The position numbers were made by a program, and so were the translations under genes. The notes below the pieces were generated by a model. The model was not told where the DNA came from. It did no database searches and saw nothing but the letters and a program-made list of their open reading frames with translations. DNA of 64,000 bases from a virus, in IMG/VR virus record IMGVR_UViG_3300028586_000750. The stretch is one strand, 5' to 3'. This document shows positions 5,868 to 59,192 of the stretch, piece by piece (within the stretch, counting starts at the first letter, position 1; the number at the start of each line of letters is the position of its first letter).

Positions 5868-6032
5868 AATGCTACCTCGTTTCTTTGTTAGTTTTTATTA
5901 TATGTTTCAACTATACACCTTGGTGTAGTTTTGTCAACAAGCAAGGGTATGGGAAAAGACAATATATTAGATAGTGATATATGATTGGTATGCTAGACGC
6001 AAGTCTCAACATACCGTCACATTAGGCCCTAA

Positions 6033-6392
6033 CTAGCCCTGTGCAGGCGGTAGAGGGGTTCTAGTGCGCTGCCTGAGCCACTTAGCGTTACGCTTCGCTA
6101 AACGGTGTGGCGAGGCTTCTACGACCGCAATGAGTTCATTTACGTCTGACTGCCCATTAAGGAAAGGGAAGATATAAGAGTGGTCAGCGTGACCTTCTTC
6201 AAGAAGAGAAGCAACTTGCGAATGGATAATTTGCATTTTGTTCACAATGGAATGCATTTGCTGCAAGGCTTCGTTTGAAGTGTAAGCACCTTTTTCTTCA
6301 AAGCGCTTAAAGTAATGTAAAGCCATCTCAGCAGTATCCTCTGCTTGTTGATGAATAGAGTTTAGAGCAGCTACTTCACTTAGTTTATCCAT
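6033..6392 (-). CDS. Hypothetical protein
   Basis: ORF preceded by TGGTATCCT -10 box (near-leaderless). Confidence 0.6.
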   Translation of the reverse strand: MDKLSEVAALNSIHQQAEDTAEMALHYFKRFEEKGAYTSNEALQQMHSIVNKMQIIHSQVASLLEEGHADHSYIFPFLNGQSDVNELIAVVEASPHRLAKRNAKWLRQRTRTPLPPAQG

Positions 6393-6472
6393 AGAATTTT
6401 AGGATACCACTTATAGGTTGTTAAAGCAAACAAAAACGGGGAACAGTATATTAATACTGCCCCCCGTGAGGC

Positions 6473-6691
6473 TTAAAGAGCCTTGATAAGCTTTCGGATT
6501 AGTCCGTTAGTTCCGAACCTAGAACCGAAGGCACTATCAAAGAGCCTCTTTAGCTCAATCTTCTTCTCTTGGATTGACTGGTCGCTGTCCAAAATTGTAA
6601 GCGCTTTGTCAGTGATAATTCCGGACATACCGTAGAACTCATTGATGAGCGTATCTACGTTCACGTAAGTGTTGTTGAGGTTGATACTCAT
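6473..6691 (-). CDS. Hypothetical protein
   Basis: ORF with AAAGGAAAGG upstream. Confidence 0.6.
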   Translation of the reverse strand: MSINLNNTYVNVDTLINEFYGMSGIITDKALTILDSDQSIQEKKIELKRLFDSAFGSRFGTNGLIRKLIKAL

Positions 6692-6773
6692 TCGGGTGGA
6701 TACCTTTCCTTTGTTTATGGTTCAATCATAGCATAGAAAAAGGCCCCCATGTGAGGGCCTTTTTCTATTTTTC

Positions 6774-6998
6774 TCAGACCTCGTAGAGGTAGTTGTTAAG
6801 GGGACTGTAAAGAGCCTCCAAGTCACGCATCTGCTGGGCGCGAAGGATTTCGTCCACAATTGCGTAAACGGTTCGTGCGTTGCTCTCGTTAACAACTGCA
6901 CCAGCGAAAACAGACAGGCGAATACGGGCGTTCTCGAAGTTGTCCGCGCGAACTGCGGAAATGAAGTCTTCCTTCATTGCTTCTGCGAAACCGTTCAT
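6774..6998 (-). CDS. Hypothetical protein
   Basis: RBS AGGAG; ends at a hairpin. Confidence 0.65.
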   Translation of the reverse strand: MNGFAEAMKEDFISAVRADNFENARIRLSVFAGAVVNESNARTVYAIVDEILRAQQMRDLEALYSPLNNYLYEV

Positions 6999-7110
6999 TG
7001 TCTTGCTCCTTGTTGTGTAGCGAACTGGGATGTTTCAAGTATACATGGACAGCAAGACTTACGCAACAACAAAAGTGCGGAACACCAATATTTCTGGTGT
7101 TCCGCACTTT

Positions 7111-7368
7111 TTAGTCTTCTACGTTCCCTGTGACAAGCACCTGGTCTGTCTTGGGAAACGCCCAACTAGTGTGTGACGTGTGAAGCACGACAGCTTCACC
7201 TTCGACCTCAATTGTTTCTACAACGAATGTTTCTACTTCTGAGGTTAGCCTTAGAACTTCTAGGTCATCACCGTCATCAGAGGTAACGTTCTCTAGAATA
7301 GGGTAAAAATCAATAAGGTCGCCAACCTTAACTTCTGTTACTGGGGTTAGTGTTCCGTCTTCCGACAT
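7111..7368 (-). CDS. Hypothetical acidic protein
   Basis: RBS AGGAG; beta-strand-like pattern. Confidence 0.65.
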   Translation of the reverse strand: MSEDGTLTPVTEVKVGDLIDFYPILENVTSDDGDDLEVLRLTSEVETFVVETIEVEGEAVVLHTSHTSWAFPKTDQVLVTGNVED

Positions 7369-7465
7369 TAAATCTCCTGTTTTATGGAATATATACTTTC
7401 ATAGTATATCAATCTTTTCCCAAGTTAGCAAGACCTAACTTGGGAAAAGACATTACTCGCAGCTA

Positions 7466-7768
7466 TTAAGCGTTGTTGTACTCGTCTTCGCTGCGAGGGC
7501 TGAACTCCCAAGCGGGACTGTCTTCCATGCCGACCTTAAAGTGCCTACGGTACTCGCTACCGTCATCGTCAATCGTGACCCAAGGCTCAGGGTCCGACCA
7601 AAGAGGGTGAACCTGCTCATCAAACTCGTCTCGCGGGTCGTACGTCCACCCGTTCCACATGACACCGTTCTCGTCAAGTCCGTCCTCGTGAGCGGTGTGA
7701 GTGCGAAACTCCTTACCATTCTCGTCAAGGGTAACCCAAGGCTCGGGGTCGCGGTTCACGGTGTACAT
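7466..7768 (-). CDS. Acidic protein with internal duplication
   Basis: RDPEPWVTLDENGKEFRTH repeated as SDPEPWVTIDDDGSEYRRH. Confidence 0.7.
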   Translation of the reverse strand: MYTVNRDPEPWVTLDENGKEFRTHTAHEDGLDENGVMWNGWTYDPRDEFDEQVHPLWSDPEPWVTIDDDGSEYRRHFKVGMEDSPAWEFSPRSEDEYNNA

Positions 7769-7879
7769 GTTAACTCCAAAATTAGTGGGGATGAACTCTT
7801 AACTAAAGCGTACACCTGTAGAGCAGAAAGAGCAACACCAAAAAAGACAAGTTTTTGAAGAAACTGATATGCTTTACCT

Positions 7880-11120: not shown

Positions 11121-11238
11121 AAGTTAATTATACGATAGAACGCGGTTGCTTCCATTAATTAAAGCACTTGGGAAAAGACATTGCTTTTCAAGGAATATAA
11201 TGATAAGATAGCCAGTAGACTACTTTATAAGGAATGCA

Positions 11239-12896: not shown

Positions 12897-13027
12897 CTAG
12901 TAACTAGGTAAGGCCCCAAGTCATTTAAGGCTTGGGGCCTTACCTTTACCCTTTGGGAAAAGACAGTGCATATAAACAAGTGTGGCCCCTTACTAATCAG
13001 GTAAGGGGCCACACTTGGAAGGTCTAA

Positions 13028-13538: not shown

Positions 13539-13586
13539 CATAAAGGTAATGCCCCACCAGTTATCTGGTGGGGCATTACCTTTATG
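13539..13586. terminator. CCCCACCAG-core palindrome
   Basis: 22-bp stem, TTAT loop. Confidence 0.85.
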
Positions 13587-14576: not shown

Positions 14577-14912
14577 ATGAAAAACATTATATTAACTGGT
14601 ACCCCAGTTTCTTTGCCTGAACACATGCGACAACTTTCTATTCATGATGCGCCTCTTGATGTAGTGGTCTATATGCCTTTTGATAACCTTTATGTTGATG
14701 GCAATTATGGGCTATGGGTTAGCCCTGATGATGGTTTTTATGACCTTGAGGACATTGAGGATGAAGAAGAAGATTTCGTTGCAGTCACTCGCCATGAAGA
14801 AGGTTTTGAAATTTGGGTTAGCATACTTGACCAATTTACTGTTGACCGTACAGCCACCTTTGAAAAGTTTCTTCCTGTTATCCGTTTGAACTTAGCGGAT
14901 GAAGAAGACTAA
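14577..14912 (+). CDS. Acidic hypothetical protein
   Basis: Leaderless TGCTAAACT-N6-ATG. Confidence 0.65.
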   Translation: MKNIILTGTPVSLPEHMRQLSIHDAPLDVVVYMPFDNLYVDGNYGLWVSPDDGFYDLEDIEDEEEDFVAVTRHEEGFEIWVSILDQFTVDRTATFEKFLPVIRLNLADEED

Positions 14913-14928
14913 CCCTTTGGGAAAAGAC

Positions 14929-14966
14929 AAGTAAGGCCCCACCAGATGACTGGTGGGGCCTTACTT
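14929..14966. terminator. CCCCACCAG-core palindrome
   Basis: 17-bp stem, ATGA loop, convergent genes. Confidence 0.85.
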
Positions 14967-15298: not shown

Positions 15299-15766
15299 GT
15301 GTTAAAAATTTTACGCGCACAACGACAAAGCGCAAGTGAAGAGGGCTTCACTCTTATCGAGTTAATGATCGTTGTGGTCATTATTGGCATCCTCGCTGCT
15401 ATTGCTATTCCAATCTTCGCAAACCAACAGAAATCAGCTATAGCGGCTGGCGTTAAGTCAGATGTTAAGAACACCAACACAAACATCGCTACAGCGCTTA
15501 TTAAAAACCCTAAATCAGATGATGTATCTGCTGATTTTAAAGAGTCAGAAGTTTATAACGGTCACCCTGTAACAAAAACAGAAGCTGACGCAGGAAAAAA
15601 TGTTGTCATTAGCGATACCAGAACAACTATTACAATAGGTGATGGAACCGGAGAACGCATAGCTTGGGACCGCTACATTGTGGTAGGTAAAAATCCTTCT
15701 GTTAGTTCTACGTTCAGTGTTACTTACGACGTAAAAACAGGTAAAACAACAACAGTGGGAGCATAA
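15299..15766 (+). CDS. Type IV pilin, Cys-free tail
   Basis: GTG start; SEEG|FTLIELMIVVVIIGILAAIAIPIFANQQK. Confidence 0.93.
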   Translation: MLKILRAQRQSASEEGFTLIELMIVVVIIGILAAIAIPIFANQQKSAIAAGVKSDVKNTNTNIATALIKNPKSDDVSADFKESEVYNGHPVTKTEADAGKNVVISDTRTTITIGDGTGERIAWDRYIVVGKNPSVSSTFSVTYDVKTGKTTTVGA

Positions 15767-15767
15767 A

Positions 15768-16322
15768 ATGGTTAACAGACTCAAAAACTTACGTAGTTCA
15801 GGCTCAGAAGAAGGCTTTACTCTCATTGAGTTAATGATCGTTGTAGTGATCATTGGTATCCTCGCTGCTATTGCTATACCAATTTTCGCCAATCAACAGA
15901 AAGCTGCTCAACTTGCTGCTGTTAAATCTGACGTTAAGAACACTGCGTTAGCAATTCAAACTCACGCGACTAAAGGTTTCTACCCAACAACTGACGCTCA
16001 ACTGCAAGCAACAAAAATTAGTGTCAGTGCACCAGGGAATTTTGACCTTACACGCAACAACTATCTAGTATGTACCACTAAAGGCGGCGCTAATACTAAT
16101 GAGTACGCTGTTGCTGCGTTATCTAATGACGGTAAAACTCTTGTCTACTACACGTCAACCGAAGGATTAAAAACTTCTGAGACTATTACCTTAGCTAATA
16201 GCATTGCAGGTTCTTGTGCTCAAATGGGTATCACAGTTGACTCTGCTACAGGTTTTGGCGCATGGGCTTACGGCGGGACAACAACTAAAGCTTGGTACCC
16301 TTGGACTGGAGTAACAGCATAA
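15768..16322 (+). CDS. Type IV pilin, Cys-containing tail
   Basis: G|FTLIEL motif; two Cys. Confidence 0.95.
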   Translation: MVNRLKNLRSSGSEEGFTLIELMIVVVIIGILAAIAIPIFANQQKAAQLAAVKSDVKNTALAIQTHATKGFYPTTDAQLQATKISVSAPGNFDLTRNNYLVCTTKGGANTNEYAVAALSNDGKTLVYYTSTEGLKTSETITLANSIAGSCAQMGITVDSATGFGAWAYGGTTTKAWYPWTGVTA

Positions 16323-16324
16323 TT

Positions 16325-16804
16325 ATGATTAATAGACTTAAAAACTTACGTAACTCAGGTTCAGAGGAAGGGTTTACCCTTATCGAGCTAATGATTGTTG
16401 TTGTGATTATTGGCATCCTTGCTGCGATTGCTATTCCTATTTTCGCAAACCAACAGAAGGCCGCTATAGACGCTAGTATAAAAAGCGACGTGAAAAATGG
16501 CGTTTTGGCAATTGAAACTTATTTTGCTCAGCATCCAGAAAAGACAACTTTTACTGCTGCTGATTTGTCCGGTCAATTTAAACCAGGCAAAGACACACGA
16601 ATTGAGGTTTGGGGTACCAAAAAAGCTTACTGTGTCATTGGAAGCAACCCAAACTCTGGTTCATACAACTTAAGTCCTGGCGCATCTGGTAATGACCCAA
16701 CTTACTACTTGTATTATAACCTTGAAGGGTACAAGAAAGACGCACAACGCTGGTCTTTTGAAGCCTGTCGTGATGGTTCACCTGTAGTATTTACTACTTC
16801 TTAG
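16325..16804 (+). CDS. Type IV pilin, Cys-containing tail
   Basis: Start reassigned to MINRLKN (16325); G|FTLIEL motif; two Cys. Confidence 0.95.
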   Translation: MINRLKNLRNSGSEEGFTLIELMIVVVIIGILAAIAIPIFANQQKAAIDASIKSDVKNGVLAIETYFAQHPEKTTFTAADLSGQFKPGKDTRIEVWGTKKAYCVIGSNPNSGSYNLSPGASGNDPTYYLYYNLEGYKKDAQRWSFEACRDGSPVVFTTS

Positions 16805-16882
16805 TAGGCTATGGGAAAAGACACTTAAACTAGGAAAGCTCCTCACCTGATGGTGGGGAGCTTTTTTGGATGAGGCGGGGTA

Positions 16883-17766: not shown

Positions 17767-17855
17767 AATTTTTCCTTATAAGTTGTGAATAACAGTTAAA
17801 TGATTAGTTCAACTGTATAGGATGTTTATTGATTATGCAAGTAGGGGAATGCTAA

Positions 17856-18285: not shown

Positions 18286-18900
18286 ATGTCCGCTCAAATG
18301 TACGGTTTTGTTCTTCTTCCCGATCAAACCAATTTACGCAAAATGGTTGAGATAAATAACTCTGTGTTCCCTGCGTCCCCGTTACAATTGGACAAGGAAT
18401 ACACTTTGCCTCATTGCACTGTATTACAAGCCCCTATTCGTAATACCTTTGACTACCAATCTTCCTTAGAGAAATTTGTTGGTTTTTCCGGCTTCAAACA
18501 TGAACCTCGTACTGAAATTGGTACTATGTATCAAGATGGGTATGCTGTTCTTATTGACGTGGATAATGCTCGCTGGTTATCTGACTTTAATGCTTACATG
18601 GTCAGGGAAGTATCAGAATTCATTGATGTTCCGCCTGTGGGAAAAGACACTGTTTTTGAGAACTCTGACCAAGAATTAAGCTACTCTTTAACAGGATACA
18701 AACGTAACCTTGCTGCCTACTCTCCCCATTTCACTATTGCAGTTAACGAGGGAAAAGATAAAGCTAGTTTTGACCCATCTGCTAACACAGCATTAGGAGC
18801 GACAGTACGTTTCCGTAAGTTGGCTTTCTGTAAGCATGGGCAATACGGGAAAGTAGCTCAGGTTATAAGCTCTGTGGATTTACCTTTTCAATGGGATTGA
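18286..18900 (+). CDS. 2H phosphoesterase-family protein
   Basis: Two HxT motifs: LPHCTVL and YSPHFTIA. Confidence 0.7.
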   Translation: MSAQMYGFVLLPDQTNLRKMVEINNSVFPASPLQLDKEYTLPHCTVLQAPIRNTFDYQSSLEKFVGFSGFKHEPRTEIGTMYQDGYAVLIDVDNARWLSDFNAYMVREVSEFIDVPPVGKDTVFENSDQELSYSLTGYKRNLAAYSPHFTIAVNEGKDKASFDPSANTALGATVRFRKLAFCKHGQYGKVAQVISSVDLPFQWD

Positions 18901-19684: not shown

Positions 19685-20668
19685 ATGGTCCATACTGCGC
19701 ACAAACTGAATAAGCTATTCCTTGTAGGGTTAGCTGTTCTTGCTGTTGTTGCTTTAACTCGCATATTCTTTGATGCCCAATTCCAGCTTGGTAGTTCACT
19801 TCAAAACTTATTGAGCTTATCCATAGCTGTTATTATTGAGTCCACGCCATTTGTTATTCTTGGTATTGTTCTTTCCGGATTGTTGCAAAAGTTTGTGTCT
19901 TATGACCATGTTGCTCGCTATCTTCCGAAGAATGCTTTCCTCCGAAGAGCACTACTTTCATTAATGGGAGTGTTCATTCCAGTCTGCGAATGTGGAAATG
20001 TTCCTTTAGCCCGTGGATTGATACTTAAAGGGTTTACTGTTCCAGAAGCAATGACATTTTTGCTAGCCGCACCAATCCTTAACCCCTTGACCATTATCAC
20101 TACATACCAAGCTTTTGGTTGGGATAACGGCATTCTTGTCGGACGTATCATTGGTGGATTTGTGATTGCCAACTTGATTGCTTGGTATTTCAGCACTCAC
20201 GCTAATCCTCATGGGTTACTTACCGAAAAGTTTGAAGCTGCATGCAATCACAGTCATGGCATGGGAAAAGACATAAAGTTTTTCAATACGTTTCTTTCCG
20301 AAGTAAGCGTTATTATGCCCACTTTAATTTTAGGTAGTTTCATCGCTGGTGGCATACATGCTTTCGTTCCACAAGAGTTCTTAACACAAGTTGCGTCCAA
20401 CCCAGTTTCTGCTGTGTTAGTGATGATTGTTATGGCTTTCGTTATTGCAATCTGTTCAAACGTTGATGCTTTCTTTGCTCTTTCGTTTGCATCTATTTTC
20501 CCTTCTTACGCAATCCTAGTGTTCCTTCTTGTAGGTCCACTTGTTGATATCAAAATGTTGGCACTATTAAGGACAACATTCAAAACCTCCACTGTTGCTA
20601 CAATAGCTGTTCTTGTAGTGATATTAAGTGTAACAATCAGCTTAGGGGTAAGCACTTTCTATGCTTAA
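19685..20668 (+). CDS. DUF318-family permease (putative metal transport)
   Basis: PVCECGNVPLARGL, FLLAAPILNP, ICSNVDAF, GPLVDIK; multi-TM. Confidence 0.9.
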   Translation: MVHTAHKLNKLFLVGLAVLAVVALTRIFFDAQFQLGSSLQNLLSLSIAVIIESTPFVILGIVLSGLLQKFVSYDHVARYLPKNAFLRRALLSLMGVFIPVCECGNVPLARGLILKGFTVPEAMTFLLAAPILNPLTIITTYQAFGWDNGILVGRIIGGFVIANLIAWYFSTHANPHGLLTEKFEAACNHSHGMGKDIKFFNTFLSEVSVIMPTLILGSFIAGGIHAFVPQEFLTQVASNPVSAVLVMIVMAFVIAICSNVDAFFALSFASIFPSYAILVFLLVGPLVDIKMLALLRTTFKTSTVATIAVLVVILSVTISLGVSTFYA

Positions 20669-21383: not shown

Positions 21384-22443
21384 AGCAAGACGTTTCCTCT
21401 TAGGCGGGATACTCGTATTATGTTTAGCTCTCATAGGAGTATTCATCGCTGTTAACTCACATAAAGCTGACAAAGAAGTAGAGAACGCTTTCCAAAGCAT
21501 GTCAGGTTTTGTTCTTACAGACCAAGGTATTGAGAAGGTTGAACAGAATAGTGACACACTAGAAACAGCAATGGTCTTGGAAAAAGACAATATTGCTTCC
21601 TTTGATGTGGTTGATAACAAAACTTTGGTGTACGAAGTATACGCAAACAAAGAAGATACTTCTAAGTCCAACATTTTTACTTACAACCTTGACACAAAAA
21701 AGTCTGACAATGTTTTTGCAAGCACAGAAACAAACTATTTTTCGAGTCTGCATAGTTTAGACAATGGCCGTTTTGGTGTTCTAGAGACTGATGATATTAA
21801 CAATGTACGTCGTTTGATGATTTTCAATGTATCTACAGGAGTTACTGAAAATTTTGGTTCACCTACCAAAGAGAACTTCATTATTGACTGGATACCATCC
21901 CCTGATGGAAAACATGCTGCTTTCAAAGGTGTGAACGATGATGCTTACGTGTTCAATATTGAAGATGGTACTTCCACATTGATTGGTACCTTCAATAACC
22001 AGTTTGGCTTTCTAGACAACAACACAATTTGGGTGACAAACATTGAAGACGATAAGAAAATGTCGGTGTTTAATATTGCTAGCAAACAGTCTAAAGAAGT
22101 AAAATTCGCAGATGGATTAGTGAACAAAACCTTCTTAAATGGAGCTTTACTTACTAGTTCGCCTACGGAGAAAGTCATTTGGACTACTAGTGGATTTTAC
22201 AACTCAGATACGGCAAGCCAACTGGTTATTGCCACAGATGGAACTGAATATTCTACCATCTACGATTTGACGTACAACGGTTACAAGTTTTTGAGTGTTA
22301 CGCCCTCGTTTGATGCAACAAAACAAATCATGTCTATTGCTTCAACAGATAATTATGAAAACAACGTAATACTTGTTATCGACACTACAACTGGTCAACT
22401 GCTTACTACCTTGTTCGGTAAACAGTTCATCTATACAAGCTAA
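21355..22443 (+). CDS. Membrane-anchored beta-propeller-like (TolB-like) protein
   Basis: N-terminal TM; WIPSPDGKHAAF and repeated beta-blade patterns. Confidence 0.55.
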   Translation: MNRMNLMTIKARRFLLGGILVLCLALIGVFIAVNSHKADKEVENAFQSMSGFVLTDQGIEKVEQNSDTLETAMVLEKDNIASFDVVDNKTLVYEVYANKEDTSKSNIFTYNLDTKKSDNVFASTETNYFSSLHSLDNGRFGVLETDDINNVRRLMIFNVSTGVTENFGSPTKENFIIDWIPSPDGKHAAFKGVNDDAYVFNIEDGTSTLIGTFNNQFGFLDNNTIWVTNIEDDKKMSVFNIASKQSKEVKFADGLVNKTFLNGALLTSSPTEKVIWTTSGFYNSDTASQLVIATDGTEYSTIYDLTYNGYKFLSVTPSFDATKQIMSIASTDNYENNVILVIDTTTGQLLTTLFGKQFIYTS

Positions 22444-24275: not shown

Positions 24276-24298
24276 TGGGAAAAGACAAGCTACTCTGT

Positions 24299-25666: not shown

Positions 25667-25747
25667 CCGATGGGAAAAGACAGCTTCTTAGTGTAGAGAT
25701 AGGCTGTCTTTTCTGATATACTGAAAGTATATTAGAAAGGTTTTATT

Positions 25748-27676: not shown

Positions 27677-27758
27677 CTTATCATATCAATAGTTACAATA
27701 TAAGGCTGTGGGAAAAGACACACTTTACTTATTCAGAATAATTTGATATGATAAGAGT

Positions 27759-29218: not shown

Positions 29219-29235
29219 CGGTCATGTGAAAAGAC

Positions 29236-29281
29236 AATGAGTGAGGCCCCACCAGTTAATTCTGGTGGGGCCTCACTCATT
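29236..29281. terminator. CCCCACCAG-core palindrome
   Basis: 20-bp stem, TTAATT loop, convergent genes. Confidence 0.85.
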
Positions 29282-29675: not shown

Positions 29676-30242
29676 ATGAATGCACAACCAAAAACTGATG
29701 TAATCAAAGTAATTTACAATGAAGGTGAAGAAAAGCCTTGGGCTTTAGATTATGAAGACGTGAGCGCAATCAAAACTGCTCGTGCTGCATTAAACTATCC
29801 TGCTCAGAAGTTCGAAACAGAAGAAAAAGCTGTTGAAGTAGCTGAAATGCTTCGTGATATTATTAAAGCTGATGCTGTAGTAATTCCAAGTGAAGACGAA
29901 GTGCTAGATGATGTAGAAAAAGCTAAGTTCTTCCAGCCTATTAGTTCAGAAGATAAAACAGATGAACTACATGACGGTGGACATAGAGATAACCACGACC
30001 ATGATGACACGAAACGTGAAGATGTAGATTTCTACGCTACTGATGAAGTAGATGAAGACTTAATCCGCGAGTCACAACAAGAAGCTGATATTAAAAATTT
30101 AGATAGTGATGAAATTACTACTAACCCTGGCGAGTCTCAAAGACAAGCTGAAAGGGAAATGGGAATAGACACCCCTTACACCGAGGCTGACAAAGCCCAA
30201 GGGCGTACTAGACCAGTAATTACACCACCGCCAACGATTTAA
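29676..30242 (+). CDS. Acidic, partly disordered protein
   Basis: RBS AAGGAGG; D/E/H-rich centre; terminator follows. Confidence 0.7.
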   Translation: MNAQPKTDVIKVIYNEGEEKPWALDYEDVSAIKTARAALNYPAQKFETEEKAVEVAEMLRDIIKADAVVIPSEDEVLDDVEKAKFFQPISSEDKTDELHDGGHRDNHDHDDTKREDVDFYATDEVDEDLIRESQQEADIKNLDSDEITTNPGESQRQAEREMGIDTPYTEADKAQGRTRPVITPPPTI

Positions 30243-31945: not shown

Positions 31946-32060
31946 GCAATGGGAAAAGACAAGGTGTGTCAAAAGAATTTCAACTTTCTTTTGACACACC
32001 TTGTCTTTTGTGGTTTAATGGTTTTAGAGAGATACAAACCCTTTAGAGAGAGAAACGAAA

Positions 32061-33296: not shown

Positions 33297-33644
33297 TATT
33301 ACTTTCTTTTTGGCGGATAAGTTATGTGTTTATTCTAGCAGGATAAGCTAGTTCTGTCTACTCGTTTCAACTAGAAAATAAACGTTTACCTATTTGGTAA
33401 TAATTGTATAGTTGCATTAGACAAAACTCTGTTGCTCATAAACTGCCAAAGTTTTTAATAGCATTTTTAAAATTTAGGTTGGCGCCAACATCGCCAACCG
33501 CCAACTTGTGTTGAATAAGAATATGAATAAACATTTGGTAACGGGAAAAGACATTATTTAAATTATTCTCAAAAAGGTGTTGTTAATGTCGGTGCTAGTT
33601 GATAGAATAAGAGTATATCTTCTGCATCCCTACTTTGAAAGGTT

Positions 33645-35289: not shown

Positions 35290-35304
35290 CACCTTTGGTA
35301 AAAG

Positions 35305-35352
35305 ACATAGTTAAGGCCCCACCAGTTAATTCTGGTGGGGCCTTAACTATGT
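35305..35352. terminator. CCCCACCAG-core palindrome
   Basis: 21-bp stem, TTAATT loop, convergent genes. Confidence 0.85.
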
Positions 35353-37861: not shown

Positions 37862-37962
37862 AGTGATTTATATATCGGAAGTTTCTAGAAAATTAACGCA
37901 AATGGGAAAAGACAATGGCTCTCAAACTATATGTACAGTTTGAGAGCCATTGGTAAGTTTAC

Positions 37963-38675: not shown

Positions 38676-39854
38676 TTAGACACCGGAGTAATCAGGTGTT
38701 CCGTCAGCATTCTTAGGAAGTGGCGTTCCATCTTCGTAAGTAGGCCAAGCTAACCTTCTTTTTGGTTGTTCTGGTGGAGTAGGCACAGCTTCTGGTTCTT
38801 GAACTGGTAAAGCAGGCTCAGATACCTCTGGGACGCTCTGTGGCGCGTTCTGCGCTTCTGTGGCGCTATCTGCGACAGGTTGGCGGCTCTCTTCCGGTTG
38901 AGGCGCTACAGGGGCGTTTACAGGCTGTGGCGCTGCGATTGGTTCTCTTTGTTGTACAGGAGAAACCTGTTGTGCAGGAGAAACTTGTTGTGCATTGCTT
39001 CCATAAGCAGGTAAGTTAACTGTTTGGACAGGTGTAGCAAAAATTACTTTTCCATGATTGTCCACAGGTTGTCCATACTTGTCATAAGCATAAGGAACAA
39101 CAATATTTCCACGATTGTCAACGAGAGTTTGTCCATTGTTGTTATCAAAAGGACGAGCAAAATTATTTACAGGTGCAATTGCTGGTTTCTTAGGACCAAA
39201 TAAGCTTACGCATAGAGGAATAAGTGCCGCTCCAACTGCGGTAAGAATAACTGTTGCCCACATAGCTCTCCAGTAGAATTCACCATAAGTAATGTGGCTA
39301 ATTACAAGAGGAAGAACAAGGAACAGTGTTGTTAAGCTGATAAGAACTAAAGTACCAATAGCTGTTGCTTTAATGGAACTGGTTTCGTATCTACGGCTAA
39401 CATTTACAAGCCATGAACCTATCAATAAGGCTAACCTCAAAAGGACAAGAACCCAGAATAGCTGGAAGAACTTGACAGCAACGAGAATGACATAAGGCTC
39501 TTCATTTGTAGTCAAGTAATCTTGCAACCAAATCTTATACAACCCTGCAAGTAGTAAGAATATTGACGTGAATAAGCCAGCCAGAGCAAAGTTGTTGCCT
39601 TTGTTTGTGGAAACTTCTGCGTCAAACCATGCAAGAAACGCTAGGACAACAACAAGTACAATTGTGGCAAGTGCTTTAACGTGAAGTTCACCAAAGCTAC
39701 CAAATAAAGCTGCTACGGCTGCAATTAATCCAGCAAAAACTACTGAACCTACAATGGTTTTTAGGACCATTCCGCGAACTTTGCTCCACAGTGGTGAAAG
39801 CTGCTCATCATTGTTGGTTGGTTGTACGCTAGTTACAGCGTTGGGAAAAGACAT
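38676..39854 (-). CDS. Multi-pass membrane protein with P/Q-rich C-terminal tail
   Basis: About seven TM helices; QQVSP tandem repeat; start MSFPNA. Confidence 0.75.
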   Translation of the reverse strand: MSFPNAVTSVQPTNNDEQLSPLWSKVRGMVLKTIVGSVVFAGLIAAVAALFGSFGELHVKALATIVLVVVLAFLAWFDAEVSTNKGNNFALAGLFTSIFLLLAGLYKIWLQDYLTTNEEPYVILVAVKFFQLFWVLVLLRLALLIGSWLVNVSRRYETSSIKATAIGTLVLISLTTLFLVLPLVISHITYGEFYWRAMWATVILTAVGAALIPLCVSLFGPKKPAIAPVNNFARPFDNNNGQTLVDNRGNIVVPYAYDKYGQPVDNHGKVIFATPVQTVNLPAYGSNAQQVSPAQQVSPVQQREPIAAPQPVNAPVAPQPEESRQPVADSATEAQNAPQSVPEVSEPALPVQEPEAVPTPPEQPKRRLAWPTYEDGTPLPKNADGTPDYSGV

Positions 39855-39948
39855 ATATTTACCTTTCGTCAACTGAGGTTGTTCAGTTATGTATGGTATA
39901 CATATCGGCCTTAACACCAAATCGCGTAAGATATAACCTTAACTGTGA

Positions 39949-41211
39949 TTACACCGTAACTTCGAGTAAAGCTAAGCTTGTAGCAAGCGTTAACTCGGCT
40001 GTAGAACTTCCCATTGTTCTTTCTAAGTAGTTATCTAAACGGCTCACATAGTCAGCGCGCTCTTCAAAGCTATAGCATTCCCAGAGATTTTTGTGCTCAA
40101 AATACAAATGAACATTCTCAGGAAGACGAGCCGAATATACGTCAATAGAAGTGGAATACTTTTTGCATTCTTTTTCAAAAGCATAATACACTTCTTCATT
40201 CAACTTATCTAAACCAGTAATAGACAATAAACCATGAAAAAAGTAGCTTGATGACTTTTTGGCGTTCTTCATTGCTGTCAAATATTCAATCAAGTCTTCT
40301 TGCTTAACATGACCGATATATGAAAGCAAATTATAACCGTCAGTGTCCGCCCATGTATCACGGAATGTTTCGGGTGCACTGGCTACACGGAAACCATTCT
40401 CATGAAGGTCAAGTTTTAGTTGTTCATCTTCGGGATAACCTGATTGAAGCAAATATTTAATGCTTCGCATAGCTTCTTGGTCTTCTTCTTTCGTACTGTC
40501 TTTAATAACTTTAAACAAAGCTAAAGCTTCAGCGTAAACGTTATCTGACCATTTTTTATCTGAGATAGAAAAACTAAACTTTTCATAAACAGCTTTTTTG
40601 ACAAATTCCTTTACTGTTACCCCACCTATTATATTTAGACTTTGGTAAAGAGGAGTCATACGATTTGGGTTGTTGAATGTTGCTGGTACTTCATATTTGT
40701 AGATATACGATTTCAACAATTCTACATTTTCATATGAATAGTTTAGGTAACTGTAAGTAGAATAATTTTCAGTTACAAGCTCATCTGGGTCCATAGTATT
40801 AGCAACATCGATTTCAACTGCTTCCTCAAATAATTTGTTTCGTGTGCTTTCTTTAAGGTTAAAAACATTCGCAAATTGTAAAATCCTAGGAATGAATTTA
40901 TAACCGTCACTATGAAGACCATTAAATACATAATCTTGTTCTGCAAGATACGCAACAGCATTAAGCACAACATCATCCCAGTATCCTTCTTCCCAGGAAG
41001 CAGTATTAAGATAATTGATTAGCATGTAATCTCTTAACAATCCACCAATAAACAATTCAGGGTATTGGGAAAAGACTTCTCTCCCATATTTACGAGTAAT
41101 GTAAAGAGATTGTGCTTTGAAATTTTCAGGCTGGCCAAGTACCGAACCTCTTTCAAAGTAAGGAAGTACGCGCTCTAAACTATCTAACTCATTTGTTGCC
41201 ATTGTAAGCAT
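39949..41211 (-). CDS. Large hypothetical helical protein
   Basis: 420-aa ORF, Y/E/K-rich, no motif recognised. Confidence 0.7.
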   Translation of the reverse strand: MLTMATNELDSLERVLPYFERGSVLGQPENFKAQSLYITRKYGREVFSQYPELFIGGLLRDYMLINYLNTASWEEGYWDDVVLNAVAYLAEQDYVFNGLHSDGYKFIPRILQFANVFNLKESTRNKLFEEAVEIDVANTMDPDELVTENYSTYSYLNYSYENVELLKSYIYKYEVPATFNNPNRMTPLYQSLNIIGGVTVKEFVKKAVYEKFSFSISDKKWSDNVYAEALALFKVIKDSTKEEDQEAMRSIKYLLQSGYPEDEQLKLDLHENGFRVASAPETFRDTWADTDGYNLLSYIGHVKQEDLIEYLTAMKNAKKSSSYFFHGLLSITGLDKLNEEVYYAFEKECKKYSTSIDVYSARLPENVHLYFEHKNLWECYSFEERADYVSRLDNYLERTMGSSTAELTLATSLALLEVTV

Positions 41212-45663: not shown

Positions 45664-45722
45664 ACAAGTATTGCCCCTAATTTTAAGTTAGGGGCAATAC
45701 TTGTTTGGCTCAGGGAAAAGAC

Positions 45723-45772
45723 ATATAAGTTATGGCCTTACCAGAATTAAGTGGTAAGGCCATAACTTATAT
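45723..45772. terminator. CCTTACCAG-variant palindrome
   Basis: About 21-bp stem, AATTAA loop, convergent genes. Confidence 0.8.
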
Positions 45773-47453: not shown

Positions 47454-47542
47454 AGTTATCCTTAATTGTTATATACCCCTATACTAGCATCATCTTAGAC
47501 CAATGGCAATAGGTGGTTGATACATGTGGTAGTATATTAAGT

Positions 47543-48163: not shown

Positions 48164-48176
48164 CGGTATTGGGGAA

Positions 48177-48224
48177 AGACAACTGTGGCCTCACCAGAAT
48201 TAACTGGTGAGGCCACAGTTGTCT
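48177..48224. terminator. CCTCACCAG-variant palindrome
   Basis: 21-bp stem with compensatory change, convergent genes. Confidence 0.85.
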
Positions 48225-54607: not shown

Positions 54608-55402
54608 ATGAAAAACAACGCACCGGGAAAAGACATAGATAACAGTCTCAATTTACCTGCGAAAGCTTATTGGGATAAGTTAGCAGCTAGTCCTGACTTC
54701 AAATTTACCTTTGATCATGAACGCCCTATTCCACTTTTTGATGTATTCATTGAAGACCTTAAAAAGGTAAACACTAAAGTTTACGGCAAGAAAAGAAAAT
54801 TTAGCGAGTTCAAAGGTTATCTTATTGGTAGCAGTTCTGTTTCCACAGGTGGAATTGGTTTAGGGATTTTAGGGTTAGCACTCTTTCCTGTAGCACCAAT
54901 GGTTACTTTTGGTTTGATTCCTTTGGGACTAATGGGTTTGGTTGCTGGCGTTCCTTTGTTATTTTATGATAAAGGAGTAACTTCAACTTATGCGTGGAAA
55001 ATGTTGCGACCTAAGTACGCAGAGGCTGTCAAAGAATGGCTTCTTACAAACAACCTTAAAGATTTAGCAGAACACCCTGATTTTGATACTTTACTTTCAA
55101 CATGCAAAGGAACATTCAAAATCACTAAAGATGTTTCATATGAAGTAACAAATGACAAAAAATTTATCTATATTGAAAAAGTCATTCGTGAAGATATCGA
55201 AGTACCTGCAAATCTTGAAGAACCAACAACATTCTTCGCTTTACCTAGCGCTGAAAGTGTTAAGAAGAAAGCTTTAACGGCTGATATAACTGCTTTACTT
55301 GATGAAGATGCTACTCAGGAAGAGCTAGATACATCCGCTCTTGCTCATTCTATTCTTGAAGCAGACGAAGAGGCAGAAGAGTTAGAAGTACCTAAAGCAT
55401 AA
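54608..55402 (+). CDS. Membrane protein with acidic tail
   Basis: G-rich TM hairpin; leaderless TGGTATTAT-N6-ATG. Confidence 0.7.
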   Translation: MKNNAPGKDIDNSLNLPAKAYWDKLAASPDFKFTFDHERPIPLFDVFIEDLKKVNTKVYGKKRKFSEFKGYLIGSSSVSTGGIGLGILGLALFPVAPMVTFGLIPLGLMGLVAGVPLLFYDKGVTSTYAWKMLRPKYAEAVKEWLLTNNLKDLAEHPDFDTLLSTCKGTFKITKDVSYEVTNDKKFIYIEKVIREDIEVPANLEEPTTFFALPSAESVKKKALTADITALLDEDATQEELDTSALAHSILEADEEAEELEVPKA

Positions 55403-56053: not shown

Positions 56054-56578
56054 ATGAGTTTACCCATTAAAGCTGAAATACGTGGTTTTGATTTACCTGC
56101 ATTGATAAATGATGCAAAGCAAGTTAATGTCTTCGATCATGAGTTTCCTGAAACTGAGTTAACTATCAAAACTAAACAAGTTTCTGCGGCAACCTTATCT
56201 GAGTTCATTCGCCGTTATCCTATGGCTGCTCCTGCTCTTGTTAATGCAAAAAAGAAGACAGTAACAATTCGCCTCAACAACGAAGGCATCTTTATTGATG
56301 TGTTATTCGCTTTATTAGATGCAGAGCTAGACCTTTTGGGTAAAGACATTTCTAATAAAAAGTACGATGATACTCGTAGCTCTATAATTCGTGAATTCCG
56401 TCGTCAAGTTCCTTTTACTTCTATGACATATGGTTTCCTAGAAGATGAACTAACACGTGAAAAAATTATGATTGATACAAGTACCGAAGAATTTAAGCAA
56501 AATGTTGAAGACATTGTTGCCAAAGTTAAGGCCAAACGTAAAACTAATGGCACTCCTAAAAGAACAGGTCTAATTTAA
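56054..56578 (+). CDS. Hypothetical protein
   Basis: RBS AAGGA; coupled to the next ORF. Confidence 0.65.
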   Translation: MSLPIKAEIRGFDLPALINDAKQVNVFDHEFPETELTIKTKQVSAATLSEFIRRYPMAAPALVNAKKKTVTIRLNNEGIFIDVLFALLDAELDLLGKDISNKKYDDTRSSIIREFRRQVPFTSMTYGFLEDELTREKIMIDTSTEEFKQNVEDIVAKVKAKRKTNGTPKRTGLI

Positions 56579-57185: not shown

Positions 57186-57288
57186 TAGGTTTTCTCTCTA
57201 CTTAACCAATAATAATACTCTTAGTTTAGCCTACTAAAAGACGTATGTCAACACACATAAAAATAACCTTTAGGTTTTACCCTAAAGG

Positions 57289-57465
57289 TTACCGCTCTCC
57301 GTTGCGAATAGCATTTTCTTTAATTGCTTTCCTAGTCCTTTGACGATTAGGACGGTTATCATGTGTTCCAGCTTTGTTACCAAAAGCTATATCACGTAAA
57401 CCTTTAGCTAACTCAGGATTAGCTACACGGTAAGATGAGCCGTTATTTTTCTTTTTCTTAGCCAT
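57289..57465 (-). CDS. Small basic protein, GxHDNRP family copy 2 (58 aa)
   Basis: Hand-translated MAKKKKNNGSSYRVANPELAKGLRDIAFGNKAGTHDNRPNRQRTRKAIKENAIRNGER; RBS AAAGGAAAG. Confidence 0.75.
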   Translation of the reverse strand: MAKKKKNNGSSYRVANPELAKGLRDIAFGNKAGTHDNRPNRQRTRKAIKENAIRNGER

Positions 57466-57575
57466 AGCTTTCCTTTCTTAACTATTATGCTTATATTATA
57501 TCGGTATAAAAGTTTATCATAAATAACTAAAGAAGCCACCAACATTGTATATGTTGGTGGCTTCTTTATGCTTGT

Positions 57576-57839
57576 TTAAAGAAAAGATAGAACTACACGG
57601 TAAATTACCCATACTGCAAGCGCAGAAAGAGCAACAATGTGAAGAGCTAATGGCTTTAGAACCTTTTCAAGCTTTCTCGCTTTTGCGTGCCATTTCTGGA
57701 AAAGCTCTTCGCTCTTAGGGAACGTTAGACCATCACGCTTTGTAACAGGTTTAGTGAGCTTGATATATACAAGAGCACCAAAGAAGACAAGCTCTAAGAA
57801 CAAGGCTATTGATAGCAGGGAATAGTCGATAAAAGACAA
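57576..57839 (-). CDS. Small membrane protein
   Basis: Two TM helices; TTG start uncertain. Confidence 0.55.
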   Translation of the reverse strand: MSFIDYSLLSIALFLELVFFGALVYIKLTKPVTKRDGLTFPKSEELFQKWHAKARKLEKVLKPLALHIVALSALAVWVIYRVVLSFL

Positions 57840-57971
57840 GTTTTTTCTCTCGGTAGAAGTTAATGAACTTTGTTAGCTACAGCTTACCTGTTTTTTAAAG
57901 GTAATGCAACCTAAAATGACGAATGGAGCAAACATTTCTGTCTACTCCATTCGTCATTTGTTCTTCAGTGC

Positions 57972-58664
57972 TTAGGCGACAAGCCAATCCGCTACAAGAG
58001 GGATTTGACGGTCAAAGGTCCACTCAGCCTCAGGGTGGAACTGAACAGCCTTGATTGTACCGTCCTCGCTTTCAAGGGCCTCTACAACACCGTCAGTGCT
58101 GTAAGCAGTACCGACAAGGCCGTAACCGAAGTCCTTAACGGACTGGTGGTGAGAGCAACGCACGTCACCCATCTGAGAAAGCATAGGGTCGTCAGTCTCA
58201 ATCGCAGTTACAGCGAAGCGGTCACGAAGCTGCGTGTAGCTCTTGTTCTTGTGGCCGTCAAAGTCCTGAATAAGGCTACCACCAAGGGCAACGTTAATGA
58301 CCTGTAGACCACGGCAGATACCGAAGACACGCTTGCCCTGTAGTGAAGCGTAACGGACAGCTTCCATCTGAATGTAGTCACCCTTTGCAGTGTGAAGACC
58401 ACCGTTAGGGTAAACCCAAGGGCCGTCGTAGAATGCAGGGTGAACGTCCTCACCACCGGGAAGAAGAACAGCGTCAACCTCATCCACAATCTTGTGGATT
58501 TCGTTGATTTCCAGGTTGGAGGCAACCTTAACGATGGGGGTTACCCCAAGCTTCTCAAAATAGGTGCCAAGCGGACCCATGATGTATTCCTTAGCATACG
58601 CGTTGAACGATGCCGAACGGCCAGAGACGCTCGATGCGTCAAGGATAAGAACCTTCTTAGTCAT
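57972..58664 (-). CDS. Peptidase C26 / gamma-glutamyl-gamma-aminobutyrate hydrolase-like class I glutamine amidotransferase
   Basis: LLPGGEDVHP.FY, FGICRGLQVINVALGGSLIQD, SHHQSV, VQFHPE. Confidence 0.93.
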   Translation of the reverse strand: MTKKVLILDASSVSGRSASFNAYAKEYIMGPLGTYFEKLGVTPIVKVASNLEINEIHKIVDEVDAVLLPGGEDVHPAFYDGPWVYPNGGLHTAKGDYIQMEAVRYASLQGKRVFGICRGLQVINVALGGSLIQDFDGHKNKSYTQLRDRFAVTAIETDDPMLSQMGDVRCSHHQSVKDFGYGLVGTAYSTDGVVEALESEDGTIKAVQFHPEAEWTFDRQIPLVADWLVA

Positions 58665-58776
58665 TATCTTTTCCTTCTTCTCTCAGTGGTTTTTCTCTCT
58701 AAGTACAGTCTTACAGAGTTTCTATGATTATGCAACTGCAAATAGATTTTTCTTACAAAATCTTGGTTATTAACCT

Positions 58777-58818
58777 AGTATAGCAACTTATACACAGGTT
58801 GTCAACAGGTTATGCACA
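58777..58818 (-). promoter_or_regulatory. Sigma70 promoter overlapped by three DnaA-box-like 9-mers
   Basis: Minus strand TTGACA-N17-TATACT; plus strand TTATACACA (58788), TTGTCAACA (58799), TTATGCACA (58810). Confidence 0.6.
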
Positions 58819-58838
58819 GTTTATTTGGCTATTTATAC

Positions 58839-59192
58839 CTACCAAGTTGTAGGATGCCAGGAATAGTATCCGTCATTACCGTACTTAGTGAAACCATTTT
58901 TCACATAAAACTTGATAACATCATCAGAAGAAACATTCTCAATCTTCTCTGGGAACAAAATTACAGGAAGCTGAACCAGCAAAGCTAGCGCTTGAATTTG
59001 GTTAAGAGCTTTAGTGCCATGCCCTTGCTTTTGCTCCTGAACAGGAACACTAATAAGTCTTACGTGAATGTGCTTGTATTTCTGTGAAACAAAAGCGTCA
59101 ACTACAGTGGATGATTTATTCAAAGCTTTCATGCGTATAAGGGAAAAGACATACTTGAAAACTAGTGCCTTAAACGCGATAAGTGAGAACAT
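58839..59192 (-). CDS. GNAT-family acetyltransferase
   Basis: ISVPVQEQKQGHGTKAL (motif A) and KFYVKNGF; leaderless. Confidence 0.75.
   Translation of the reverse strand: MFSLIAFKALVFKYVFSLIRMKALNKSSTVVDAFVSQKYKHIHVRLISVPVQEQKQGHGTKALNQIQALALLVQLPVILFPEKIENVSSDDVIKFYVKNGFTKYGNDGYYSWHPTTW

What the first reader, a model, noticed from the sequence alone, without database searches (positions are those of the whole stretch)
5951..59151. Strand-polarised, quasi-periodic 11-mer GGGAAAAGACA spaced about 1.4-2 kb apart
Seen: 18 exact copies, all on the + strand regardless of the direction of surrounding genes. 13 are intergenic and 5 lie in or overlap ORFs on either strand (read as G-K-D in three + genes). 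Intervals are 1491, 3728, 1785, 1964, 1894, 1826, 1624, 4014, 1395, 2038, 4241, 1592, 4361, 1939, 5870, 8912 and 4516 bp. Ten of 17 are 1.4-2.0 kb and none is shorter than 1395. Longer gaps contain near-matches on the same strand (21578, 29225, 35296, 44065, 48170, 50368, 56337). Rough hand estimates: assuming 40% GC, about 0.015 copies per strand are expected in 64 kb; under random placement the chance of no interval below 1.4 kb is about 5e-4. Inference: this is a DNA-level directional signal independent of transcription. Candidates are a translocase/packaging orientation motif (KOPS-like), a recombination or nuclease-attenuation motif (Chi-like), lagging-strand priming sites (spacing resembles Okazaki fragment length), or a regularly spaced binding site for a genome-organising or stoperator-type protein.
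Basis: partly seen in the sequence, partly recalled or inferred. Interest (0 to 1): 0.85.

Follow-up and report, generated by a model that had tools for sequence, protein, structure and literature searches.

The report
One-strand, evenly spaced DNA word
A 17-letter DNA word, core GGGAAAAGACA, sits about every 1.2-2 kb on one strand only of a large accessory-gene region in the chromosome of an ultra-small Saccharibacteria (TM7) bacterium, not a phage; it is a real, apparently undescribed DNA-level signal whose reader is unknown.

Summary
There are 18 exact GGGAAAAGACA copies, all on the + strand (shuffles give 0.05). Allowing one mismatch gives 27 on + and 0 on -. Adding 10 kb on the left (from a 97%-identical strain) and 9 kb on the right gives 36 versus 1. 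The word extends to GG(C)(T)(A)T-GGGAAAAGACA. Spacing is far more regular than random placement (CV 0.33-0.40 against 0.99). Most copies are intergenic and half abut terminator hairpins. Copies inside + genes all use one frame (G-K-D).

The context changes. The window lies on a ~0.79 Mb chromosome of a Saccharibacteria bacterium, shown by the TyrRS lineage and a full type IV pilus/Tad locus. It is not a phage.

The word is confined to one domain: it is absent from 20 kb of the pilus locus and from related species. Between strains, single sites change at about the neutral rate.

My best reading (about 0.35) is an orientation-dependent "coverage" signal written by point mutation and read by a machine that crosses this domain one way, most likely coupled to replication. 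Rivals are a strand-specific uptake tag, a protein-docking array, nick sites and a terminator component.

First-stage notes report the same word in neighbouring windows. The scan also noted a similar one-strand 14-mer in another Patescibacteria genome.

The parts
5951..5961 (+). Exact copy, intergenic between two - strand genes
   Evidence: Reads GGGAAAAGATA in the 97%-identical strain.
7442..7452 (+). Exact copy, intergenic. Its first 8 bases form the 3' arm of a 15-bp hairpin.
   Evidence: Unchanged in the variant strain.
11170..11180 (+). Exact copy, in a divergent intergenic region
12955..12965 (+). Exact copy, intergenic, between two G+C-rich hairpins
14919..14929 (+). Exact copy, 6 nt after the stop of + gene 14577-14912. 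A 17-bp terminator hairpin starts at its last base.
16813..16823 (+). Exact copy with the full upstream TAGGCTAT, 8 nt after the stop of a + pilin gene
   Evidence: Reads GGGAAAAGACG in the variant strain.
18639..18649 (+). Exact copy inside + gene 18286-18900, read as G-K-D
20263..20273 (+). Exact copy inside the ArsP-family permease gene 19685-20668. Read as G-K-D in a loop that is not conserved in 80 bacterial homologues.
24277..24287 (+). Exact copy, intergenic between - genes, just 3' of a 25-bp hairpin
25672..25682 (+). Exact copy, 5 nt after the stop of + gene 25268-25666. Nine of its bases form one arm of an 11-bp stem.
27710..27720 (+). Exact copy, in a divergent intergenic region
31951..31961 (+). 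Exact copy, 5 nt after the stop of small + ORF 31766-31945. It forms the 5' arm of a 24-bp hairpin.
33543..33553 (+). Exact copy, intergenic between + genes
37904..37914 (+). Exact copy, intergenic between - genes. A hairpin follows directly, so on the - strand the reverse complement serves as that terminator's U-tract.
39843..39853 (+). Exact copy at the 5' edge of - gene 38676-39920, whose start codon is uncertain
   Evidence: Kept in a 98.9%-identical strain.
45713..45723 (+). Exact copy, in a convergent intergenic region, between two hairpins
54625..54635 (+). Exact copy at codons 6-9 of + ORF 54608-55402, read as G-K-D
59141..59151 (+). Exact copy inside - ORF 58839-59192, near its start
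2416..2426 (+). One-mismatch copy (GGAAAAAGACA) inside a - ORF
18750..18760 (+). One-mismatch copy (GGGAAAAGATA) inside + gene 18286-18900, in the same frame as the other copies in + genes
   Evidence: Carries a second mismatch in the variant strain.
21579..21589 (+). One-mismatch copy inside + gene 21355-22443, in the same frame
29226..29236 (+). One-mismatch copy (GTGAAAAGACA), 7 nt after the stop of + gene 28517-29218. A 20-bp bidirectional terminator hairpin follows.
30161..30171 (+). One-mismatch copy inside the highly expressed + gene 29655-30242, in the same frame
35297..35307 (+). One-mismatch copy (GGTAAAAGACA), 7 nt after the stop of + gene 34900-35289. A hairpin follows.
41067..41077 (+). 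One-mismatch copy (GGGAAAAGACT) inside - gene 39949-41211
48171..48181 (+). One-mismatch copy (GGGGAAAGACA), 7 nt after the stop of + gene 47513-48163. A hairpin follows.
56338..56348 (+). One-mismatch copy (GGGTAAAGACA) inside + gene 56054-56578, in the same frame

Best explanation
GG(C)(T)(A)T-GGGAAAAGACA is a cis-acting DNA word of a Saccharibacteria (TM7) chromosome. Point substitutions, not insertion of a repeat unit, wrote it about once per 1.2-2 kb. It lies on one strand only of a domain of small, separately transcribed accessory genes. I verified at least 75 kb of that domain; unchecked first-stage notes suggest about 110-130 kb.

Its orientation ignores gene direction and its spacing is even. 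So it is read on the DNA itself, in an orientation-dependent way.

The word lies on the G-rich strand. If GC skew has its usual meaning, that strand is the template of the lagging strand for a fork moving left to right. The sites would then be evenly spaced loading, re-priming or end-protection (Chi-like) points.

Shown: the polarity, the even spacing, the origin by point mutation, the independence from transcription, the domain restriction and the bacterial replicon. Inferred: that replication is the directional process, and what happens at a site.
For: - **Polarity:** 36 sites with one mismatch or fewer lie on + and 1 on -, over 83 kb. The binomial P is 6e-10.
- **Spacing:** intervals cluster at 1.2-2.0 kb, with CV 0.33-0.40 against 0.99 for random placement that respects the intergenic/coding split. 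Two-mismatch copies sit in the long gaps.
- **Independence from transcription:** copies occur in ++, --, convergent and divergent spacers and inside genes of both strands. Nothing is conserved at a fixed distance apart from positions -6 to +10.
- **Origin by substitution:** the permease copy encodes G-K-D in a loop of similar length in 80 homologues. All 7 copies inside + genes use one frame.
- **Strand composition:** the word-bearing strand has positive GC skew through the dense region.
- **Decay series:** the window holds 18 exact copies, 9 with one mismatch and about 16 above background with two mismatches. This fits steady creation and decay of weakly selected sites.
Against: - **Domain restriction:** the word is confined to one domain. 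There are no copies in the 20-kb type IV pilus locus of the same species, where about 5 would be expected from its intergenic DNA. There are none between about 65.05 and 73 kb. A chromosome-wide replication signal should not stop like this.
- **No reader gene:** a Pfam scan of the 114 window ORFs of 60 aa or more named no primase, nickase or helicase family; the largest were also scanned singly.
- **Weak constraint:** between strains 1-3% apart, the 11-nt cores changed 3 times in 165 nt. That is 1.8%, against 2.9% for other intergenic DNA. Strong purifying selection on single sites is excluded.
- **Relatives:** related species show neither this word nor another polar word in the regions sampled.
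- **Precedent:** I know of no 11-17-nt replication-coupled word in a bacterial chromosome.
- **Origin and terminus:** I could not locate either.
Confidence: 0.35

Rival explanations
1. The word is a strand-specific uptake or 'self' tag, working like DUS/USS. Saccharibacteria are naturally competent and use type IV pili. The word would mark DNA of this accessory domain for uptake and recombination. The strict polarity would then require that donor DNA is delivered or recognised as one particular strand.
For: - Its length, density (about 1 per 1.2-2 kb), even spacing, intergenic and terminator association and weak per-site constraint are the known hallmarks of DUS/USS from established knowledge. 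I did not read the DUS/USS papers that one search lists (PMC2397512, PMC2346458).
- Sites arose by point mutation.
- The word is species-specific, like a 'dialect'.
- Natural competence of Saccharibacteria is stated in the abstracts listed (PMC10633639).
- The same species has PilB/T/C plus about 20 pilin genes, 7 of them in this window.
Against: - DUS and USS occur in both orientations about equally and genome-wide. Here the count is 36 to 1 on one strand, and the word is absent from the pilus locus.
- A one-strand donor mechanism is an extra assumption with no evidence behind it.
Confidence: 0.2
2. The word is an array of docking sites for a domain-specific DNA-binding protein. It would work like the asymmetric stoperators of Cluster A mycobacteriophages, or as a roadblock or domain organiser that silences or insulates this accessory region.
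For: - The site is asymmetric and 13-17 nt long, occurs about once per 1.7 kb, is mostly intergenic, has a near-invariant core and is lineage-specific.
- Seven sites sit 5-8 nt after the stop codon of a + gene and before its terminator. A rightward-transcription roadblock would sit there.
- A 272-aa ORF at 35819-36637 is called ParB-like in an unchecked first-stage note quoted. It had no Pfam hit.
Against: - Stoperators follow the direction of transcription. Here half the neighbouring genes run the other way.
- Orientation-independent binding would give mixed orientations.
- Even spacing and in-gene copies are not predicted.
- No cognate repressor has been identified.
Confidence: 0.15
3. The sites are single-strand nick sites of an integrated phage-like or mobile element. 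Known examples are T5, the phiKMV-like phages, and Pseudomonas phages tf and Rembedalsseter (TACT/RTGMC).
For: - Known nick words are exact 9-mers found on one strand only, ignore gene direction and concentrate in one part of the genome (PMC3517423; 10.1101/2024.10.22.619576).
- The domain's gene content looked phage-like to every first-stage reader.
Against: - The replicon is a bacterial chromosome.
- Its tetranucleotide signature resembles the rest of the genome.
- No structural, terminase or nickase genes were seen in 83 kb.
- Nick words are conserved across related phages, lie mostly inside genes at the background rate and are not evenly spaced. This word is none of these.
Confidence: 0.1
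4. The word is a transcript-level element. It would be part of the terminators, acting as the A-tract on + and the U-tract (UGUCUUUUCCC) on -, or a 3'-UTR motif of + strand genes.
For: - 17 of 36 sites abut a strong hairpin, where about 2.5 would be expected. Twelve lie on the 5' side.
- Several - strand terminators use the reverse complement as their tail.
- Seven sites lie 5-8 nt after a + stop codon, against an expectation of 0.7.
Against: - Nineteen sites have no hairpin nearby.
- Copies occur in promoter-side spacers and inside genes.
- + strand terminators have ordinary T-tails with no equivalent word.
- Even spacing on the kilobase scale has no transcript-level reason.
- The preference for the 5' side is explained simply: an A-rich word is tolerated only there.
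Confidence: 0.07
5. The word is a passive relic of a repeat. It would be the end of a REP/RAYT-like or MITE-like element, or an integron-like cassette boundary.
For: - All copies share one orientation, as attC sites in a cassette array do.
- Small stand-alone genes are shuffled between relatives.
- A family of similar palindromic terminators is present.
Against: - Flanks are unrelated beyond 17 nt.
- The hairpins differ in sequence and are perfect stems without attC features.
- Copies inside a full-length conserved permease cannot be insertions.
- Strain differences (a 229-bp deletion and a gene replacement at 38254) do not end at sites.
Confidence: 0.03

Closest known systems
Stoperators of Cluster A mycobacteriophages (L5 gp71 sites, 13-bp asymmetric; recalled from established knowledge)
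   Same: Both are asymmetric sites of about 13-17 nt with a near-invariant core. Both occur about once per 1.7-2 kb, lie mostly in short intergenic spacers and have a lineage-specific sequence.
   Different: Stoperator orientation follows the direction of transcription, and they lie in a prophage. This word keeps one orientation among genes that run both ways, in a bacterial chromosome, and no repressor is known.
Nick-associated words of phages tf and Rembedalsseter (TACT/RTGMC), T5 and phiKMV-like phages (PMC3517423; 10.1101/2024.10.22.619576)
   Same: Both are exact short words found strictly on one strand, whatever the gene direction, and concentrated in one part of the genome.
   Different: Nick words are a property of phage virion DNA, are conserved across related phages, lie mostly inside genes and are not evenly spaced. 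This word is bacterial, species-specific, intergenic and evenly spaced. Nicks could not be tested.
DNA uptake sequences (Neisseriaceae DUS, Pasteurellaceae USS)
   Same: Both are 10-12-nt words with weaker flanks, at about one per kb and evenly spaced. Both often lie in or beside terminators, arise by point mutation and are weakly constrained per site. Both occur in a competent lineage with type IV pili.
   Different: DUS and USS are genome-wide and occur equally in both orientations. This word is 36 to 1 on one strand and confined to one domain.
Chi and KOPS/SRS (architecture-imparting sequences)
   Same: Both are purine- or G-rich words on the G-rich strand with strong strand polarity. Both are read by one-way translocases.
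   Different: Chi, KOPS and SRS are 5-8 nt, genome-wide and mainly inside genes. They have no reported even spacing, and their skew is rarely absolute.

Membership tests
DUS/USS uptake sequences | Host is naturally competent and has type IV pilus machinery | tested here: met
   The same species carries PilB, PilT, PilC, PilO and many pilins. The lineage is Saccharibacteria, whose competence is stated in the abstracts listed (PMC10633639).
DUS/USS uptake sequences | Word is present genome-wide at about 1 per kb | tested here: not met
   No copies in the 20-kb pilus locus and none between about 65.05 and 73 kb.
DUS/USS uptake sequences | Both orientations are about equally frequent | tested here: not met
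   36 on + against 1 on -.
DUS/USS uptake sequences | The word enhances DNA uptake | not testable with these tools
   Needs a transformation assay.
Phage localized-nick motifs (T5, tf, phiKMV) | Exact word on one strand only | tested here: met
Phage localized-nick motifs (T5, tf, phiKMV) | Lies in a phage genome and is conserved in related phages | tested here: not met
   The replicon is a Saccharibacteria chromosome. Relatives lack the word. IMG/VR and INPHARED hold no relatives.
Phage localized-nick motifs (T5, tf, phiKMV) | A physical nick at the site | not testable with these tools
   All runs found are held only as contigs.
Chi / KOPS-type oriented words | Polarity is co-oriented with replication and flips at origin and terminus | tested here: inconclusive
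   The word lies on the strand with positive GC skew. Origin, terminus and the rest of the chromosome could not be read.
Chi / KOPS-type oriented words | Short (5-8 nt), genome-wide and mostly within genes | tested here: not met
   The conserved stretch is 11-17 nt, copies are mostly intergenic and the word is domain-limited.
Stoperators | Asymmetric site of about 13 bp, about 1 per 2 kb, in intergenic spacers | tested here: met
Stoperators | Orientation is fixed relative to the direction of transcription | tested here: not met
   Neighbouring genes run both ways.
Primase recognition / single-strand initiation sites | On the lagging-strand template, at Okazaki-like spacing | tested here: inconclusive
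   The spacing fits. The strand assignment rests on GC skew only.
Primase recognition / single-strand initiation sites | A cognate sequence-specific primase is encoded nearby | tested here: not met
   A Pfam scan of the 114 window ORFs of 60 aa or more named no primase or prim-pol family (the largest also scanned singly). The rest of the genome was not read.
REP/RAYT elements and integron attC sites | The repeat unit includes a conserved imperfect palindrome and is strictly extragenic or at a cassette boundary | tested here: not met
   Hairpins vary in sequence, and 19 of 36 sites have none. Copies lie inside a conserved permease. Strain indels do not end at sites.

The most novel reading that the evidence does not exclude
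The word is a strand-specific 'self' tag for one-way exchange of an accessory domain that carries pilin and candidate host-interaction genes between Saccharibacteria cells. DNA of this domain would be exported or handed over as one defined strand. A pilin-type receptor of the type IV pilus uptake system would recognise it in pieces of about 2 kb. That would explain together the absolute polarity, the even spacing, the domain restriction, the species-specific sequence and the many pilin paralogues in the domain.
Probability: 0.08. Interest if true: 0.9.

Novelty: new variant of a known kind. Interest (0 to 1): 0.62.

Why it matters
Oriented genomic words such as Chi, KOPS, uptake sequences, stoperators and nick sites are each the visible footprint of a machine that reads DNA directionally. 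This word has a combination of properties that none of those has: it is long, absolutely one-stranded, evenly spaced, mostly intergenic and limited to one domain. It also lies in a Patescibacteria/Saccharibacteria chromosome, a group whose chromosome biology is almost unexplored but which can now be transformed. An unchecked note from this scan reports a similar one-strand 14-mer in another Patescibacteria genome, so this may be a wider feature of these ultra-small bacteria. If a reader protein is found, it would reveal either a new replication or repair signal, or a new way of sharing accessory genes.

Tried and rejected
- **Whole genome:** none is held. Neither the ENA 791-kb contig nor the 725-kb relative can be scanned whole.
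- **Phage and viral collections:** megablast and tblastn of window DNA and of an ORFan against INPHARED found nothing. Exact-word, motif and protein scans of IMG/VR found nothing related; the 14-mer scan returned only single chance hits.
- **ORFan homologues:** the 522-aa ORFan has no homologue apart from a 99% strain variant.
- **Read laying:** every run is held only as contigs. Starts, ends and nicks cannot be seen. RNA contigs are short and say nothing about the sites. Contig breaks near some sites are probably due to the hairpins.
- **Walking left:** this failed at the pilin repeat, where the ENA contig begins. P0107 gave only a 2.4-kb contig.
- **Rfam:** no family matched in the window.
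- **Promoter reading:** rejected. Only 7 of 15 intergenic sites have a + gene downstream.
- **Cassette-boundary and REP readings:** rejected (see rivals).
- **Second polar word:** the GACGGAC(G/A)TTTT word from earlier notes is not in the 83 kb I could read.
- **Tetranucleotide signature:** it does not mark the domain as foreign.
- **Host link:** permease and pilin homologues point to Microbacterium, but at only 50-56% identity. This is a lead to the host or to gene transfer, not proof.
- **Atlas search with PilB:** it gave no useful taxonomy.

Full report
**Observation.** One search confirms 18 exact GGGAAAAGACA at the stated coordinates, all on the + strand. Shuffles give 0.05. With one mismatch allowed the count is 27 on + and 0 on -. 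AAAAGACA alone is 36 against 4. An unbiased scan of all 7-12-mers shows this is the only strongly polar word in the window. At exactly two mismatches there are 24 sites on + and 8 on -, so about 16 are above background.

**Anatomy.** I aligned 36 sites: the window, 10 kb to its left from a 97%-identical strain, and 9 kb to its right. Conservation runs from -6 to +10, giving GG(C)(T)(A)T-GGGAAAAGACA, with T at -1 in 30 of 36. Nothing is conserved elsewhere between -45 and +60. The flanks are otherwise unrelated.

**Spacing.** I placed the same numbers of intergenic and genic sites at random for comparison.
- No interval below 1395 bp occurs with P = 2.5e-4.
- Ten or more intervals of 1.3-2.1 kb never occurred in 20,000 trials.
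- In the dense part the CV is 0.33-0.40, against 0.99 for random placement.
- In the left flank the intervals are 1446, 1664, 1528, 1290, 1148, 1183 and 555 bp.

**Context.**
- About 15% of the window is intergenic by a crude gene call, yet 12-14 of the 18 exact copies are intergenic. Independent JGI and ENA gene calls agree.
- Copies occur in ++, --, convergent and divergent spacers.
- Seven lie 5-8 nt after the stop codon of a + gene, against 0.7 expected.
- Seventeen of 36 abut a strong hairpin: 12 on the hairpin's 5' side and 7 on its 3' side, with 2 sites flanked on both sides.
- The simplest reason for the 5' preference is that an A-rich word is compatible with the 5' flank of a terminator. 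There its complement can even serve as the U-tract for the other strand. It is not compatible with the T-tract side.
- All seven copies inside + genes share one frame (xxG GGA AAA GAC Axx).
- In the ArsP-family permease the word encodes G-K-D in a loop that is not conserved, but is of similar length, in 80 homologues. These copies were therefore made by substitution, not by insertion.
- Where the word forms a hairpin arm (7442, 25672, 31951), the opposite arm never completes a reverse copy.

**What the replicon is.** The window is 100% identical to part of a 791,061-bp ENA contig, where it starts about 34 bases from the end.
- Five kb beyond the window lies a tyrosyl-tRNA synthetase. Its homologues form an unbroken series of 100, 96, 79, 75, 73 ... 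63% identity on contigs of 0.6-1.2 Mb. The series runs into proteins named Candidatus Saccharibacteria and Saccharimonadales.
- A paralogue of the window's pilins is recorded on contigs of up to 791,407 bp, the same maximum as for one of the window's own pilins. On a 509-kb contig from the same sample series as the variant strain, it lies in a full type IV pilus and Tad pilus locus with ten pilins. A 715-kb relative has the same locus.
- Nothing related is in the phage or viral collections.
- I conclude that this is a Saccharibacteria (TM7, Patescibacteria) chromosome. The 'phage-like' stretch is a large domain of small, separately transcribed genes within it.
- The domain's recognisable families are Sir2, NADAR, RNA-repair HAD domains, an R2K ATP-grasp, Imm33, an Arr-like domain, a DnaQ-like exonuclease and pilins.
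- Its tetranucleotide signature is close to that of the pilus locus.
- Metatranscriptome contigs from leaf litter cover parts of the domain.

**Distribution.** The word is dense from at least -9.3 kb to +65 kb. First-stage notes, which I could check only for the nearest 10 kb, report it on the same strand through the 64 kb to the left and thinning to the right. It is absent from the following:
- about 65.05-73 kb;
- the 20-kb pilus locus of the same species, where its intergenic DNA would predict about 5 copies;
- the pilus locus of a 715-kb relative;
- 21 kb around TyrRS in a relative with 79% TyrRS identity;
- two 20-kb pieces of a 725-kb relative, and about 86 kb of short related contigs.

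No other polar word replaces it in those regions. The word is therefore species-specific and limited to one domain.

**Micro-evolution.** I compared the window with a strain 1-3% divergent over window positions 1-29,551. The 11-nt cores of 15 sites carry 3 substitutions in 165 nt (1.8%). Other intergenic DNA shows 2.9% and coding DNA 2.0%. A tenfold constraint is unlikely (P about 0.01), but a weak one cannot be excluded. All three changes make the other strain's site worse. Another strain, 98.9% identical, keeps the site at 39843. Two structural differences between strains do not end at sites: a 229-bp deletion at 17627-17855 and a gene replacement left of 38254.

**Interpretation.** Several readings are excluded.
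- It is not a promoter: half the sites have no + gene downstream.
- It is not a transcript element: the contexts are too varied and there are in-gene copies.
- It is not a repeat or cassette scar: the flanks are unrelated and copies lie inside a conserved gene.

What remains is a signal read on the DNA, in one orientation, with a need for coverage about every 2 kb. The word lies on the strand with positive GC skew. This suits a reader coupled to replication, such as priming, loading or Chi-like end protection on the lagging-strand template. I give that reading about 0.35. The main objection is the domain restriction.

The anatomy is closest to three known kinds of site:
- **Stoperators:** these match in length, asymmetry, density and intergenic position.
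- **Phage nick words:** these are strictly one-stranded and region-biased (PMC3517423; 10.1101/2024.10.22.619576).
- **Uptake sequences:** these match in density, even spacing, terminator association and weak constraint, and the lineage is competent and piliated.

Each of the three fails at least one defining feature that I tested (see the membership table).

**Similar findings.** The scan's notes hold a similar, unchecked case in another Patescibacteria genome: a 14-mer on one strand about every 2.7 kb.

Noticed in passing
Whole window; L001 (window 52399-73034), L241, L245: The replicon is not a phage. It is a ~0.79 Mb Saccharibacteria (TM7) chromosome. TyrRS lies 5 kb to the right of the window, and the same species has a complete type IV pilus and Tad locus with ten pilins. 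Relatives have contigs of 0.69-1.0 Mb.
   Followed up: yes
L221:800-18701: A 725-kb relative (JAAIGE0101188732.1) carries 60 tRNA genes, all on one strand, within 18 kb and next to a pilin-like gene. This is unusual for a reduced Patescibacteria genome.
   Followed up: partly
Window 29655-30242 (+): A 195-aa ORF with no Pfam family has by far the deepest metatranscriptome contigs in the 20 kb laid. Depth is 30-58, against 2-8 for its neighbours.
   Followed up: no
Window 19685-20668; pilins at 473-1963 and 15299-16804: The ArsP-family permease has its best genome hits in Microbacterium and other Microbacteriaceae (50-54% identity). One pilin homologue is annotated in a Microbacterium assembly (56%). 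This may be a trace of the actinobacterial host or of gene transfer.
   Followed up: partly
Window 13541-13584, 14929-14966, 24225-24270, 28061-28106, 29236-29281 and others: A family of long, perfect terminator palindromes is built on GCCCCACCAG-loop-CTGGTGGGGC with A/T-rich extensions. Many are bidirectional.
   Followed up: partly
L207-L240 (relatives); noted upstream of pilin units in this genome: The word GATAATAAA(A/C)GATAA is shared by up to 10 related contigs outside the pilin coding regions. It is probably a conserved regulatory site of pilin genes.
   Followed up: no
Window 15299-16804 compared with L253:15299-17401: The variant strain has four pilin genes where the window has three. 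It also lacks 17627-17855, as does the straw-metagenome strain.
   Followed up: partly
Window about 37834-38254 compared with L206: A 98.9%-identical strain carries an unrelated gene to the left of position 38254. This is a gene replacement whose boundary is not at a motif site.
   Followed up: partly
Window 7427-7452, 25674-25712, 31954-32009: Where the word forms a hairpin arm, the complementary arm covers only 8-9 of its 11 bases, so a full reverse copy never arises. There are too few cases to tell whether this is avoidance.
   Followed up: no
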